Positions 4,700 through 56,752 of a stretch of DNA of 64,000 nucleotides are shown here, in pieces. Below the pieces are notes generated by a model. The model was not told the DNA's origin. It saw nothing but the letters and a program-made list of their open reading frames with translations, and did not search any database. Every line of letters starts with the position of its first letter. Position 1 is the stretch's first letter. This DNA is from a virus (taxonomy: Duplodnaviria; Caudoviricetes): IMG/VR virus record IMGVR_UViG_3300022752_000014; one strand, 5' to 3'. Made by a program: the position numbers and the translations under genes.

Positions 4700-4855
4700 A
4701 TGGATGATCTTTTAGATATGATTGCATCTGACGAATCCCCTTCTCAGATCAGCGATAAAATTAAGGAACTTCTTTTTGCAAAATCTGCAGAAAAAATTGA
4801 CACTGTTCGCCCAGAAGTAGCAGCTACAATTTTTGCAGATGCTGAAGAAGAGTGA
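4700..4855 (+). CDS. Small acidic protein (51 aa, MDDLLDMIASDESPSQISDKIKELL...), in the gp67/gp68 prohead-core position
   Basis: ORF read by hand (below the track cutoff), after late promoter 4667-4674 and directly downstream of the portal gene. Confidence 0.75.
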   Translation: MDDLLDMIASDESPSQISDKIKELLFAKSAEKIDTVRPEVAATIFADAEEE

Positions 4856-9716: not shown

Positions 9717-11153
9717 ATGTTCCATTCCGAACAATTGCAGGAAAAGTGGGCTCCTATCCTCAACTATGACGGTCTTGATTCAATCAAAGATTCGCACAGA
9801 AGAGCGGTAACCGCTGTCCTGCTAGAGAACCAAGAAAGATTTTTAAGAGAGCAAGCTTCTTTCGAGAGCGGCTCTATGGGAATGCTCACCGAGTCCCCAA
9901 CCAACAGCGCAAACTCAGCTGGTGGTTCAGGTGGTTTTGGTGGCACCTCCGCTGCTGGTGGTCCAACTGCAGGTTTCGACCCAGTTCTAATCAGCCTAAT
10001 CCGTCGTTCAATGCCAAACCTGGTCGCTTATGACCTCGCTGGCGTTCAACCAATGAGCGGTCCTACTGGACTCATCTTCGCAATGCGTTCACGTTATCAG
10101 AACCAAAGCGGTGCTGAGACCTTCTACAACGAAGTAGATTCAGCATTCTCTGGAAACGATGCTGGATTCGACGAGACCGCTGGTTATTCAGATGGTCCTG
10201 TTGGTTTCGGTACAACCGCACAGAGCGGCACCAACCCATCAGTTCTGAACCCAGTTGGTACTGCAACCACCAACCCCTCACCATATAACGTTGGTCAGGG
10301 TCTAGCAACTGGCGATGCTGAAAATCTTGATGGAAGCACCACTGATGCTTTCAACCAGATGGCATTCTCAATCGAGAAAGTCACCGTTACTGCAAAGTCA
10401 CGCGCTCTGAAGGCTGAGTACTCACTCGAGCTCGCTCAAGACCTCAAGGCAATCCACGGTCTGAATGCTGAAGCGGAATTAGCAAACATTCTCTCAACTG
10501 AGATTCTTGCTGAAATCAACCGCGAAGTTATCAGAACCATCTATAAGGTTGCTGAGCAAGGTGCTGTACAGAACGTTGCAACTCCTGGTATCTTTGACCT
10601 CGATGTTGACTCCAACGGTCGTTGGTCAGTTGAGAAGTTCAAGGGTCTTCTGTTCCAGATTGAGCGTGATGCAAACGCTATCGCTCAGAGAACTCGTCGT
10701 GGAAAGGGCAACATCATCATGTGCTCTGCTGACGTTGCTTCAGCACTGACCATGGCTGGTGTTCTTGATTACACCCCAGCACTCAACGCTAACCTCAATG
10801 TTGATGATACTGGCAATACTTTTGCTGGTACTCTGATGGGTAAATTCCGCGTCTACATCGACCCATATGCTGCTAACCTGACCTCTGCTAACGCAACTCC
10901 AGGTAATCAGTACTATGTTGTTGGTTATAAGGGTTCTTCACCTTATGACGCTGGTCTCTTCTACTGCCCATATGTTCCTCTCCAAATGGTACGTGCCGTT
11001 GGTGAGAACAGCTTCCAGCCCAAGATTGGCTTCAAGACTCGTTATGGTCTTGTTGCTAACCCATTCGCTGAAGGCACCACTCAGGGTCTCGGTAGACTGC
11101 GCCTCGACGCAAACCGTTACTACAGAAGAGTTGCTGTTAAGAACCTTATGTGA
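9717..11153 (+). CDS. gp23: Major capsid protein
   Basis: GVQPMSGPTGLIFAMRSRY, KSRALKAEYSLELAQDLKAIHG, FQPKIGFKTRYG. Confidence 0.99.
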   Translation: MFHSEQLQEKWAPILNYDGLDSIKDSHRRAVTAVLLENQERFLREQASFESGSMGMLTESPTNSANSAGGSGGFGGTSAAGGPTAGFDPVLISLIRRSMPNLVAYDLAGVQPMSGPTGLIFAMRSRYQNQSGAETFYNEVDSAFSGNDAGFDETAGYSDGPVGFGTTAQSGTNPSVLNPVGTATTNPSPYNVGQGLATGDAENLDGSTTDAFNQMAFSIEKVTVTAKSRALKAEYSLELAQDLKAIHGLNAEAELANILSTEILAEINREVIRTIYKVAEQGAVQNVATPGIFDLDVDSNGRWSVEKFKGLLFQIERDANAIAQRTRRGKGNIIMCSADVASALTMAGVLDYTPALNANLNVDDTGNTFAGTLMGKFRVYIDPYAANLTSANATPGNQYYVVGYKGSSPYDAGLFYCPYVPLQMVRAVGENSFQPKIGFKTRYGLVANPFAEGTTQGLGRLRLDANRYYRRVAVKNLM

Positions 11154-52079: not shown

Positions 52080-52108
52080 TTGACAATCATACTCAACTAC
52101 TCTATGAT
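52080..52108 (+). promoter_or_regulatory. Sigma70-type promoter inside the tRNA array
   Basis: TTGACA-N17-TATGAT. Confidence 0.7.
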
Positions 52109-52189: not shown

Positions 52190-52277
52190 CTTGGTAGTCG
52201 TTAGGCAGATAGCCTAGAAAGACGCCAATGGGAGAAGTGATCCTGCGGGTTCGCCCAAGAGCTCTCCTTCTCCTCAT

Positions 52278-52349
52278 TCCTCCTTGGCGCAGCGGTAGCG
52301 CAGATGACTGTTAATCATTTGGTCCCTGGTTCGAATCCAGGAGGGGGAG
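52278..52349 (+). tRNA. tRNA-Asn (GTT)
   Basis: TCCTCCT/AGGGGGA, loop ctGTTaa. Confidence 0.94.
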
Positions 52350-52478
52350 TTGGAAGTACTTCGGTTCTTCCAACTATGTTCTGGGTGGAATTCCCAGCGG
52401 TTTCGTTAGAGACTGTCCTTTGTAGGTTCGATGCCTACATCTTCCTTATGGGAGATAAGAGTGGCTACTGGAAACATA
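52349..52478 (+). ncRNA. Multi-stem RNA with a tRNA-type T-arm
   Basis: cUUCGg hairpin, CTGGG/CCCAG, CGGTTTC/GAGACTG, GTAGG-TTCGATG-CCTAC, ATCTTCC/GGGAGAT, closing TATGTT/AACATA. Confidence 0.5.
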
Positions 52479-52482
52479 ACAC

Positions 52483-52554
52483 GGGCGATTAGCGCAGCGG
52501 TAGCGCAGTTGCTTTACACGCAATTGGTCGGCGGTTCGAATCCGTCATCGCCCA
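52483..52554 (+). tRNA. tRNA-Val (TAC)
   Basis: GGGCGAT/ATCGCCC, loop ttTACac. Confidence 0.95.
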
Positions 52555-52582
52555 CTTGATAAATATTTAAAAAAAGAGTATA

Positions 52583-56622: not shown

Positions 56623-56752
56623 AACCAAGTGGTGGAGTCAAGTATGACCCTATTATGAGTTTCTTGCTTCTCTCAAGAGCAAGTGGTGCGGATGGGACTC
56701 TCTCCCGCCTGGTTTCCAATTTCCAGTCAAAGAATTGGTGGCGAGCCTGAGT
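56604..56752 (+). ncRNA. manA-like structured RNA with three repeated stem modules
   Basis: Three TTTC-stem-TGGYG units; sits near tRNAs and upstream of sugar genes, the context described for manA; family call from memory. Confidence 0.55.

What the first reader, a model, noticed from the sequence alone, without database searches (positions are those of the whole stretch)
52349..52478. T-loop multi-stem RNA resembling a permuted or degenerate tRNA
Seen: a canonical T-arm (GTAGG-TTCGATG-CCTAC) followed by ATCTTCC. This can pair either with upstream GGAAG (a 95 nt class-II-like fold with a broken D-arm) or with downstream GGGAGAT (an acceptor-like helix with a G3:U70 pair, closed by a 4 nt loop). 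Two more hairpins and a TATGTT/AACATA closing stem are present. Inference: a tRNA mimic or decoy for anticodon nucleases, RNase P or synthetases.
Basis: partly seen in the sequence, partly recalled or inferred. Interest (0 to 1): 0.6.

Follow-up and report, generated by a model that had tools for sequence, protein, structure and literature searches.

The report
Sealed tRNA look-alike RNA in cyanophage
Between two tRNA genes of this T4-like cyanobacterial virus lies a conserved, roughly 104-base folded RNA that copies the top half of a tRNA, but its amino-acid end is closed by a loop and it has no working anticodon, so it can imitate a tRNA without decoding; its partner is unknown.

Summary
Window 52350-52478 contains a spacer hairpin (52350-52373) and a ~104-nt multi-helix RNA (52375-52478). 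The RNA lies between tRNA-Asn and tRNA-Val in a T4-like cyanophage tRNA array.

I found the same RNA in 116 loci from IMG/VR and metagenomes, with 54 distinct core sequences. I found none in about 185,000 prokaryote genomes by pattern scan, and none in about 50,000 deposited phage genomes by blastn. No Rfam family matches it.

Comparative data fix the fold:
- a closing stem;
- an almost invariant 5-bp hairpin with a 7-nt loop;
- a covarying tetraloop hairpin;
- a 3-bp helix (UCC/GGA);
- a canonical T-arm stacked on a 7-bp acceptor-like helix, which is sealed by UUAU;
- a conserved 13-nt strand in place of the D-arm.

On the alignment, 96.7% of cells are paired and 10 pairs show compensatory changes; 0 of 500 shuffles reach that value.

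The RNA is a permuted tRNA mimic without a D-stem. Its architecture is close to the tRNA-like domains of YrlA and tmRNA, but it fails the membership tests for tRNA, YrlA, tmRNA and T4 RNAC/RNAD.

The function is inferred: it probably mimics the tRNA top half and engages tRNA-recognising machinery, possibly being opened by RNase P. Other readers and follow-up agents of this scan noted the same family on other DNA.

The parts
52080..52108 (+). Promoter-like site (TTGACA, 17 nt, TATGAT) upstream of tRNA-Gly. It probably starts the transcript that carries tRNA-Gly, a spacer RNA, tRNA-Asn, the element and tRNA-Val.
   Evidence: Consensus scan, 11 of 12 matches. This is a consensus match only.
52277..52349 (+). 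tRNA-Asn (GUU), the upstream neighbour. Its 3' processing would define the 5' end of the released spacer RNA.
   Evidence: ARAGORN; Rfam tRNA model, 65.6 bits.
52350..52373 (+). Hairpin 1 (UUGGAAGUAC-UUCG-GUUCUUCCAA). This is a spacer hairpin that follows tRNA-Asn. It is not part of the core element.
   Evidence: Sequence. In the L001 and L002 types the corresponding hairpin is 14 bp with compensatory changes. It is absent where the element follows tRNA-Gly or a promoter.
52375..52380 (+). P1a 5' strand (UAUGUU) of the closing stem.
   Evidence: Pairs with 52473-52478. Four pairs of this helix show changes on both sides, for example GC/CG/UA and GC/AU.
52381..52397 (+). Hairpin A: a 5-bp stem with the 7-nt loop UGGAAUU. 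It is nearly invariant in sequence.
   Evidence: the stem never covaries. Loop variants are UGGAACU, UGAAAUU, CGGAAUU, UGCAAUU and CGAAAUU.
52398..52415 (+). Hairpin B: a 7-bp stem with a variable tetraloop (GUUA here; UUCG, GAAA and UUUA elsewhere). It sits where a variable arm would, or acts as a structural spacer.
   Evidence: Compensatory C-G/U-G/U-A and C-G/U-A pairs.
52416..52418 (+). P1b 5' strand (UCC). It pairs with GGA at 52470-52472.
   Evidence: 100% paired. In the L012 lineage C changes to U together with G changing to A.
52422..52438 (+). T-arm: GUAGG, loop UUCGAUG, CCUAC. The 5-bp stem and 7-nt T-loop have U54, U55, C56 and A58 in the canonical places.
   Evidence: Two compensatory stem pairs occur in L006.
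52439..52456 (+). Acceptor-like helix: AUCUUCC (52439-52445), sealing loop UUAU (52446-52449), GGGAGAU (52450-52456). It follows the T-arm with no spacer and has a G:U wobble at the 3:70 position.
   Evidence: 7 of 7 pairs in 52 of 54 cores. At 3:70: G:U 49, A:U 4, G:C 1. U precedes G1 in 47 of 54.
52457..52469 (+). Conserved 13-nt single strand (AAGAGUGGCUACU; family consensus AAGAACGGCUAYU) in the place of the D-arm. It has no D-stem. Its GG is a candidate partner of the T-loop.
   Evidence: Nearly invariant. GG becomes AG only in the three sequences whose T-loop U55 is G (L006, L043, L162).
52470..52478 (+). P1b 3' strand (GGA, 52470-52472) followed without a break by the P1a 3' strand (AACAUA, 52473-52478).
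52483..52555 (+). tRNA-Val (UAC), the downstream neighbour. RNase P cleavage at its 5' end would define the element's 3' end.
   Evidence: ARAGORN; Rfam tRNA model, 70.6 bits.

Best explanation
**What it is.** This is a member of an unannotated family of phage small RNAs of about 104 nt.

**Shown**
- The RNA lies on the tRNA strand inside tRNA arrays of T4-like cyanophages, or directly behind its own sigma-70-type promoter.
- It folds into a defined set of helices: closing stem P1a, invariant hairpin A, spacer hairpin B, a 3-bp helix P1b, and a T-arm stacked on a 7-bp acceptor-like helix. That helix is sealed by a 3-5-nt loop.
- A conserved 13-nt strand stands in place of a D-arm.

**Inferred: structure**
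- P1b, the T-arm and the acceptor helix form a tRNA-like three-way junction.
- The GG of the 13-nt strand docks on the T-loop and builds a tRNA elbow, as in the D-stem-less tRNA-like domain of tmRNA.
- P1a, hairpin A, hairpin B and P1b form a perfectly paired four-way junction that replaces the anticodon half.

**Inferred: release and mechanism**
- In the window the RNA is released from the tRNA-Gly/Asn/Val transcript by the enzymes that mature the flanking tRNAs.
- It acts in trans as a non-decoding mimic of the tRNA top half.
- It occupies or recruits a factor that recognises the acceptor/T minihelix and the elbow. Because no known partner was found in the phage records searched, that factor is more likely host-encoded, though an unrecognised phage protein is not excluded.
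- RNase P is the most concrete candidate. It may also cut the sealing loop 5' of G1.
- The invariant hairpin A probably supplies a second, sequence-specific contact.
For: **Family and distribution**
- Exact and degenerate pattern scans found about 78 viral contigs and 39 metagenome contigs.
- Together these give 116 loci with 54 distinct cores.
- There is one copy per record.

**Structure**
- RNAalifold gives the consensus fold.
- Pair counts: 96.7% of cells paired, 10 pairs with changes on both sides, 0 of 500 shuffles as high. Slid controls reach only 38-52% paired.
- Indels of 1-2 nt fall in loops, which argues against a coding reading.

**tRNA likeness**
- The T-loop is canonical, and there are zero nucleotides between the T-stem and the 7-bp helix.
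- T-loop position 55 and the first G of the strand's GG change together: U with GG in 51 cores, G with AG in 3.

**Independent unit**
- TTGACA-N17-TAACAT or TAATAT sits 7-9 nt upstream of P1a in L041-, L049-, L058- and L061-type contigs.
- L043 and L006 have no tRNA nearby.
- The closest isolate, DSL-LC02, has tRNA-Asn and tRNA-Val abutting without the element.

**Precedents and partners**
- M. smegmatis YrlA, which has a 7-bp sealed acceptor stem, is cut by RNase P RNA in vitro and is cleaved and CCA-tailed in vivo (PMC4201824).
- U precedes G1 in 47 of 54 cores.
- Five phage records that carry the element have no Ro/TROVE, no RtcB and no CCA-adding enzyme. Three of these records are estimated complete. 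Any partner is therefore not one of the known phage-encoded ones.
Against: - There is no expression, end-mapping or binding data for any member.
- No cultured phage in the deposited collection carries the element.
- Hairpin A shows no covariation, and one variant has an A-C mismatch. Its pairing therefore rests on thermodynamics and invariance alone.
- The tertiary covariation of position 55 with the GG comes from one sublineage of three sequences, so it may be a single evolutionary event.
- The family is very conserved (87% mean column identity). Several helices therefore have little variation to test.
- The mimicry target is not identified.
- The G:U at 3:70 is lost in 5 of 54 cores, so AlaRS-type recognition is not strictly required.
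Confidence: 0.55

Rival explanations
1. Split, chargeable tRNA-like RNA. RNase P cuts the sealing loop 5' of G1, the UAU tail is trimmed, and CCA is added. The resulting two-piece RNA carries a G3:U70 acceptor helix that AlaRS can charge. This would be a miniature, permuted analogue of the tRNA-like domain of two-piece tmRNA, able to engage EF-Tu, SmpB or the ribosome.
For: - The 7-bp helix plus the 5-bp T-stem makes a 12-bp minihelix.
- The 3:70 position is G:U in 49 of 54 cores, and U precedes G1 in 47 of 54.
- The architecture lacks a D-stem, like tmRNA.
- M. smegmatis YrlA is cleaved by RNase P and CCA-tailed in vivo (PMC4201824).
- From general knowledge, the probable hosts (picocyanobacteria) use permuted two-piece tmRNA.
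Against: - No CCA is encoded, and position 73 would be U rather than A.
- G:U is replaced by A:U or G:C in 5 of 54 cores.
- The element has no tag reading frame.
- The cyano_tmRNA model hits only ordinary tRNA junctions, not the element.
- ARAGORN, which detects permuted tmRNA, reports none.
- By my reading, the tmRNA D-loop motif UUCGAC is absent.
Confidence: 0.12
2. Cis-acting punctuation or stability element. It would be a tRNA-shaped module that only guides RNase P, RNase Z or RNase E cleavage, or protects the polycistronic tRNA transcript, with no function in trans.
For: - In 52 of 73 distinct contexts a same-strand tRNA lies within 150 nt upstream, and in most a tRNA follows within 400 nt.
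- In the window the element sits 5 nt before tRNA-Val.
Against: - Some contigs place a strong promoter directly in front of the element.
- L043 and L006 carry it with no nearby tRNA.
- DSL-LC02 matures tRNA-Asn and tRNA-Val without it.
- Near-invariant loops and junction strands (hairpin A, the 13-nt strand) exceed what a cleavage signal needs.
Confidence: 0.12
3. A YrlA-type Y RNA that binds a host Ro60/Rsr ring and tethers it to an exoribonuclease.
For: - It has the same permuted order as YrlA: T-arm, then a loop-closed acceptor stem.
- It gives a weak YrlA hit, 17.3 bits.
- YrlA homologues occur in phages (PMC4201824).
Against: - The hit is far below the 69-bit gathering score. It is also chimeric, because it borrows the D-arm of the neighbouring tRNA-Val.
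- The element has no D-arm stem.
- The closing stem is only 4-6 bp and variable, with no conserved Ro-binding helix. By my reading, no GNCGAA motif is present.
- Five phage records that carry the element have no TROVE gene.
Confidence: 0.04
4. A decaying remnant of tRNA genes (for example a fused junction of two tRNAs), or passenger DNA spread by homing endonucleases. The RNA itself would not be under selection.
For: - The element is present or absent between close relatives.
- An ORF with a weak HNH hit overlaps its 5' end in some contigs.
- Its neighbours are shuffled between contigs.
Against: - Compensatory changes maintain five of the six helices.
- The sequence is nearly invariant across contigs whose flanks are unrelated.
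- Only 2 of 54 cores have a damaged acceptor helix.
- Outside the T-arm the tRNA model finds no homology.
Confidence: 0.06
5. A decoy substrate for host anticodon nucleases, with hairpin A acting as a bait anticodon arm.
For: - Hairpin A has the 5-bp stem and 7-nt loop geometry of an anticodon arm and is the most conserved part.
- The same arrays carry other candidate counter-defence RNAs, for example an abiF RNA in L069.
Against: - The loop has G, not U, at position 33 and a pyrimidine at position 37.
- The middle triplet varies between GAA, AAA and CAA.
- From general knowledge, known anticodon nucleases read specific anticodons and modifications.
Confidence: 0.05

Closest known systems
YrlA (Y RNA-like A, Rfam RF02553; Chen et al. 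2014, PMC4201824)
   Same: - It is a permuted tRNA mimic: variable region, T-arm, then an acceptor-like stem closed by a loop.
- Its T-loop is canonical, and it also occurs in phages.
- The 7-bp version in M. smegmatis is an RNase P and CCA-adding substrate.
   Different: - The element has no D-arm stem, no long Ro-binding terminal helix or motif, and no neighbouring Ro/TROVE gene.
- It scores 17 bits against a 69-bit threshold.
- It has two extra hairpins in a four-way junction.
tRNA-like domain of tmRNA, especially permuted two-piece tmRNA (Rfam RF01851, cyano_tmRNA)
   Same: - The acceptor helix carries G3:U70 and is stacked on a T-arm.
- The D-arm is replaced by an unpaired strand of about 13 nt that contains GG.
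- A helix (P1b here, P2a in tmRNA) stands where the anticodon stem would be.
- The gene order is permuted, with the 3' acceptor strand upstream of the 5' strand.
   Different: - The acceptor end is sealed by 3-5 nt rather than split by a long intervening segment.
- There is no encoded CCA, no tag reading frame and no pseudoknots.
- The tmRNA D-loop consensus is absent.
- ARAGORN and RF01851 give no match.
Phage T4 small stable RNAs RNAC and RNAD (species 1 and 2; rnaC, rnaD)
   Same: - They are non-tRNA small RNAs encoded on the tRNA strand inside a T4-type tRNA cluster, and their role is unknown (PMC3014915).
- RNAC also carries a T-arm next to a terminal helix.
   Different: - The family model gives no hit to either.
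- RNAC has the ordinary topology: its free 5' and 3' ends form the acceptor-like stem. Here that stem is sealed and the ends lie in the closing stem.
Circularly permuted tRNA genes (Cyanidioschyzon merolae type; recalled from memory, Soma et al. 2007)
   Same: The T-arm and 3' acceptor strand lie upstream of the 5' acceptor strand, joined by a short linker.
   Different: - After un-permuting there is no complete cloverleaf: no D-arm and no canonical anticodon loop.
- No bulge-helix-bulge motif was seen.
- The context is bacterial and phage, which lacks a splicing endonuclease.

Membership tests
tRNA (RF00005) | Cloverleaf in standard order, recognised by tRNA detectors | tested here: not met
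   ARAGORN calls the flanking tRNAs but nothing in 52350-52482. RF00005 gives no hit on the element even at E up to 10. The only hit is a 13.3-bit tRNA-Sec alignment that borrows the 3' end of tRNA-Asn.
tRNA (RF00005) | Canonical T-arm (5 bp, 7-nt loop UUCRANN) stacked on a 7-bp acceptor helix | tested here: met
   52422-52438 and 52439-52456; conserved and covarying.
YrlA (RF02553) | Score at or above the Rfam gathering threshold (69 bits) | tested here: not met
   17.3 bits. The alignment uses the D-arm of the adjacent tRNA-Val.
YrlA (RF02553) | T-arm followed by a loop-closed acceptor-like stem | tested here: met
YrlA (RF02553) | D-arm (stem and loop) after the acceptor-like stem | tested here: not met
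   The 13-nt strand AAGAACGGCUAYU has no conserved internal pairing.
YrlA (RF02553) | Encoded next to a Ro60/Rsr (TROVE) gene, with a Ro-binding terminal helix | tested here: not met
   PF05731 is absent from 5 phage records that carry the element, 3 of them estimated complete. The closing stem is 4-6 bp and variable.
tmRNA / two-piece tmRNA (RF00023, RF01851) | Detected by ARAGORN or the Rfam tmRNA models | tested here: not met
   ARAGORN finds no tmRNA. RF01851 hits in the phage records fall on ordinary tRNA junctions.
tmRNA / two-piece tmRNA (RF00023, RF01851) | Tag-peptide reading frame with a resume codon | tested here: not met
   The element is about 104 nt of helices with no room for a frame.
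tmRNA / two-piece tmRNA (RF00023, RF01851) | G3:U70 acceptor helix, T-arm, D-loop without a stem | tested here: met
   G:U in 49 of 54 cores.
tmRNA / two-piece tmRNA (RF00023, RF01851) | Free CCA 3' end that is aminoacylated | not testable with these tools
   The end is sealed in the gene. Opening by RNase P is only inferred from the YrlA precedent.
T4 RNAC/RNAD | Sequence and structure homology to rnaC or rnaD | tested here: not met
   Model R1, run with filters off on the T4 tRNA region, gives no hit on rnaC or rnaD. The folds differ.
T4 RNAC/RNAD | Non-tRNA small RNA gene within the phage tRNA cluster, on the same strand | tested here: met
Circularly permuted tRNA genes | A full cloverleaf with an anticodon loop once the halves are reordered | tested here: not met
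   There is no D-arm. The only 7-nt loop lacks U33 and R37, and its triplet varies.

The most novel reading that the evidence does not exclude
The sealing loop is opened by RNase P and the new 3' end receives CCA. That would give a phage-encoded two-piece, circularly permuted tRNA-like RNA with a G3:U70 helix that is charged with alanine. It would be a minimal tmRNA-like domain without a message. The phage could use it to tie up or redirect the host's ribosome-rescue or elongation machinery (SmpB, EF-Tu, AlaRS) during infection.
Probability: 0.1. Interest if true: 0.85.

Novelty: new variant of a known kind. Interest (0 to 1): 0.6.

Why it matters
Phage tRNA clusters have been known for 50 years to encode small stable RNAs whose roles remain unknown (T4 RNAC and RNAD). 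This family is a well-defined, strongly conserved example with a clear architectural message: it keeps the tRNA top half, seals the amino-acid end, and replaces the anticodon half.

That narrows the search for its partner to factors that read the acceptor/T minihelix and the elbow. These include RNase P, the CCA-adding enzyme, T-loop modifiers, AlaRS, EF-Tu, SmpB, and acceptor-directed toxins.

The family gives a testable handle on how viruses of globally important cyanobacteria manipulate host tRNA biology. It also supplies a new covariance model for annotating viral metagenomes.

Tried and rejected
Rejected. GGAAG lies in a separate hairpin that covaries on its own and is missing in other contexts.
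2. **D-stem GAAC/GUUC** as an alternative to the closing stem. Rejected. The covariation follows P1a and not this pairing (my reading).
3. **Hairpin A as a decoding anticodon arm (GAA, Phe) or as a CCA-binding UGG loop.** Rejected. Loop position 3 varies between G, A and C, and position 1 between U and C.
4. **Kissing dimer through AAUU in loop A.** Rejected. The common UGGAACU variant breaks the palindrome.
5. **Origin from the tRNA-Ala that neighbours tRNA-Asn in marine relatives.** Rejected. tRNA-Ala lies upstream of tRNA-Asn there, and its sequence is unrelated.
Not supported. Outside the T-arm there is no detectable tRNA homology.
7. **A weak model hit in DSL-LC02** (20.9 bits). It lacks the T-arm and acceptor helix, so it is not a member.
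8. **Phage-encoded partners.** TROVE, RtcB and the CCA-adding enzyme are absent. An RNA ligase is present in only 1 of 5 records.
9. **Pattern false positives.** L009, L010, L025, L032, L037, L055, L078 and most of L127-L171 are chance matches.
10. **The 2023 catalogue of IMG/VR structured RNAs (PMC10690425).** I could not check whether the motif is listed there, because no supplementary files are held.

Full report
**Setting.** The window is part of a T4-like cyanomyovirus.
- Its nrdA/nrdB, primase and neighbouring genes are about 76% identical to those of Synechococcus phages such as DSL-LC03, S-SM2 and DSL-LC02.
- It carries a wcaG RNA and ten tRNA genes.
- IMG/VR contig L003 (184 kb) is nearly identical across the region.
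- The finding lies in the 133-nt gap between tRNA-Asn(GUU), 52277-52349, and tRNA-Val(UAC), 52483-52555.
- A promoter-like site (TTGACA-17-TATGAT, 52080-52108) precedes tRNA-Gly. The element is therefore probably co-transcribed with tRNA-Gly, tRNA-Asn and tRNA-Val.

**Observation.**
- hairpin 1 with a UUCG loop (52350-52373);
- the closing stem TATGTT/AACATA (52375-52380 with 52473-52478);
- CTGGG-TGGAATT-CCCAG (52381-52397);
- a second hairpin (52398-52415);
- the T-arm GTAGG-TTCGATG-CCTAC (52422-52438);
- ATCTTCC-TTAT-GGGAGAT (52439-52456).

The gap folds at -46.5 kcal/mol with z = -3.78. ARAGORN and Rfam do not call anything here. The only weak hits are two. One is a chimeric 17.3-bit YrlA alignment that borrows the D-arm of tRNA-Val. 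The other is a 13.3-bit tRNA-Sec alignment that borrows the end of tRNA-Asn.

**Relatives.**
- An exact 24-mer search and then degenerate pattern scans of IMG/VR recovered about 78 viral contigs.
- One metagenome scan recovered 39 more contigs.
- After chance matches were removed there are 116 loci with 54 distinct core sequences.
- A pattern scan of one genome from each of about 185,000 prokaryote species found nothing.
- blastn of the element against about 50,000 deposited phage genomes found only chance T-loop matches.
- A covariance model built from the alignment (R1) finds one copy per record at 117-143 bits and nothing else in the window.
- The closest cultured relative, DSL-LC02, has tRNA-Asn and tRNA-Val directly abutting. 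Hairpin 1 plus the element therefore behaves as a 133-nt insertion or deletion.

**Structure.** RNAalifold and explicit pair counting on 38 distinct sequences support six helices.
- P1a is the closing stem. Its core is 4 bp, extendable to 6, and four of its pairs show changes on both sides.
- Hairpin A has 5 bp and a 7-nt loop. It is essentially invariant, with no covariation and one A-C variant.
- Hairpin B has 7 bp. Its loops vary (GUUA, UUCG, GAAA, UUUA) and two of its pairs are compensatory.
- P1b pairs UCC with GGA. The L012 lineage changes C to U together with G to A.
- The T-arm has two compensatory pairs in L006.
- The acceptor-like helix has 7 bp, with one compensatory pair in L043.

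Overall 96.7% of cells are paired, and 10 pairs change on both sides. None of 500 shuffles reaches these values, and slid controls give 38-52% pairing.

There are no unpaired nucleotides between P1a, A, B and P1b, so these form a fully paired four-way junction. P1b, the T-arm and the acceptor helix form a three-way junction. Its long strand, AAGAACGGCUAYU, occupies the place of the D-arm but has no stem.

The T-loop keeps U54, U55, C56 and A58. In the only three sequences where position 55 is G (L006, L043, L162), the first G of the strand's GG is A. All 51 others have U with GG. This is what a G18-U55 / G19-C56 elbow would predict. The three sequences form one sublineage, so it may be a single event.

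That GGAAG belongs to hairpin 1. Hairpin 1 covaries on its own in the L001 and L002 types. It is replaced by a different short hairpin after tRNA-Gly, or by a promoter, in other contigs.

**An independent RNA, not a degenerate tRNA and not only a processing signal.**
- In several contig types a strong sigma-70-type promoter (TTGACA-N17-TAACAT or TAATAT) ends 7-9 nt before P1a.
- In L043 and L006 no tRNA is nearby.
- Across 73 distinct contexts the upstream neighbour is tRNA-Asn in 34, tRNA-Gly in 15 and no tRNA in 18. The downstream neighbours are many different tRNAs or other small modules, always on the same strand.
- The core stays about 90% identical while the flanks are unrelated. Loop indels of 1-2 nt exclude a coding explanation.

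**What it works like.** The order of parts is: variable region, T-arm, 3' acceptor strand, short loop, 5' acceptor strand, D-region, closing helix. This is the permuted order described for bacterial YrlA Y RNAs (PMC4201824). The lack of a D-stem, the G:U at the 3:70 position (49 of 54 cores), and a helix in place of the anticodon stem resemble the tRNA-like domain of tmRNA more closely.

[quoted passage not shown] M. smegmatis YrlA is the one YrlA with a 7-bp sealed stem. It is cut by RNase P RNA in vitro and is cleaved and CCA-tailed in vivo. In this family U precedes G1 in 47 of 54 cores.

I therefore favour a trans-acting mimic of the tRNA top half that engages tRNA-recognising machinery. 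RNase P is the most concrete candidate, and opening of the loop is a real possibility. This step is inference.

Five phage records that carry the element, three of them estimated complete, encode no Ro/TROVE, RtcB or CCA-adding enzyme. Only one has an RNA ligase domain. The partner is thus more likely host-encoded, or an unrecognised phage protein.

Hairpin A is the most conserved part, but it is not an anticodon arm. It has G at position 33 and a pyrimidine at 37, and its central triplet varies between GAA, AAA and CAA. I read it as a sequence-specific contact site of unknown partner.

**Comparison and membership.**
- The element fails the tests for tRNA, because no detector calls it.
- It fails for YrlA: 17 against 69 bits, no D-arm, no Ro-binding helix, and no TROVE neighbour.
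- It fails for tmRNA: no model hit and no tag frame. The RF01851 hits in these phages fall on ordinary tRNA junctions.
- T4 RNAC and RNAD are the positional analogues. They are small RNAs of unknown role in the T4 tRNA region (PMC3014915). However, model R1 does not hit them, and RNAC has free ends forming its acceptor-like stem beside the T-arm, which is the opposite topology.
- A 2023 catalogue predicts 8,495 unnamed structured RNAs in IMG/VR (PMC10690425). I could not check whether this motif is among them.

**Earlier notes of this scan.** Other readers and follow-up agents described the same family on other DNA as a sealed, rearranged tRNA look-alike with YrlA or T4 RNAC/RNAD as the closest known. 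I reached the same reading before opening those notes. My tests agree with it. One note proposes an origin from the junction of two tRNA genes; I found no support for that, since there is no tRNA homology outside the T-arm. Their remark that these arrays also carry an orphan RNA antitoxin is borne out by an abiF RNA hit in L069.

**Verdict.** This is a real, conserved and so far unannotated tRNA-mimic RNA family, found here only in T4-like cyanophage-type viral and metagenome contigs. Its structure is well supported and its function is unknown. The most novel reading still open is a split, alanine-chargeable, tmRNA-like domain produced by RNase P opening.

Noticed in passing
window 56655-56752 (+): wcaG RNA (RF01761), 104 bits. 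It also occurs a few kb from the element in L001, L019 and L034.
   Followed up: no
window 52190-52277 (+): The 86-nt spacer between tRNA-Gly and tRNA-Asn folds into two hairpin modules (-33.1 kcal/mol, z = -2.9). The first module (about 52191-52229) recurs right after tRNA-Pro in the isolate S-SZBM1 and also in DSL-LC02. It matches no Rfam family.
   Followed up: partly
L124 1786-1936 (Synechococcus phage DSL-LC02): In the closest cultured relative, tRNA-Asn and tRNA-Val abut with no spacer. Hairpin 1 plus the element is therefore a clean 133-nt presence/absence difference.
   Followed up: yes
L069 2804-2840 (+): abiF RNA (RF03085, 44.7 bits, above threshold) lies immediately upstream of tRNA-Ile in a phage contig that also carries the element. 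It may be an orphan RNA antitoxin within the tRNA array.
   Followed up: no
L043 5051-5248 (+): A group I intron (RF00028, 53.6 bits) lies about 175 nt downstream of the element in a 250-kb phage record in which the element is not next to any tRNA.
   Followed up: no
L056 3268-3825 (-); the same arrangement in L007, L059, L064 and L065: A 185-aa ORF with a weak HNH_2 hit (18.2 bits, below the cut-off) ends inside the first ~35 nt of the element. It may be a homing endonuclease parked against this conserved sequence.
   Followed up: partly
L040 about 11050-11130; L043 about 4700-4760; L001 about 12085-11990 (-): Conserved small hairpin modules recur beside the element. CCUAAG-UUCG-CUUAGG followed by GGGGAYUUGAUCACCCC is found on either side of it. 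A CACUGC...GCAGUG hairpin followed by GCAGAA...UUCUGC is also seen. None matches Rfam.
   Followed up: no
L041, L049, L058, L061 and similar contigs, 30-40 nt upstream of the element: A near-consensus promoter (TTGACA-N17-TAACAT or TAATAT) sits directly in front of the element, making it a stand-alone transcription unit in those phages.
   Followed up: partly
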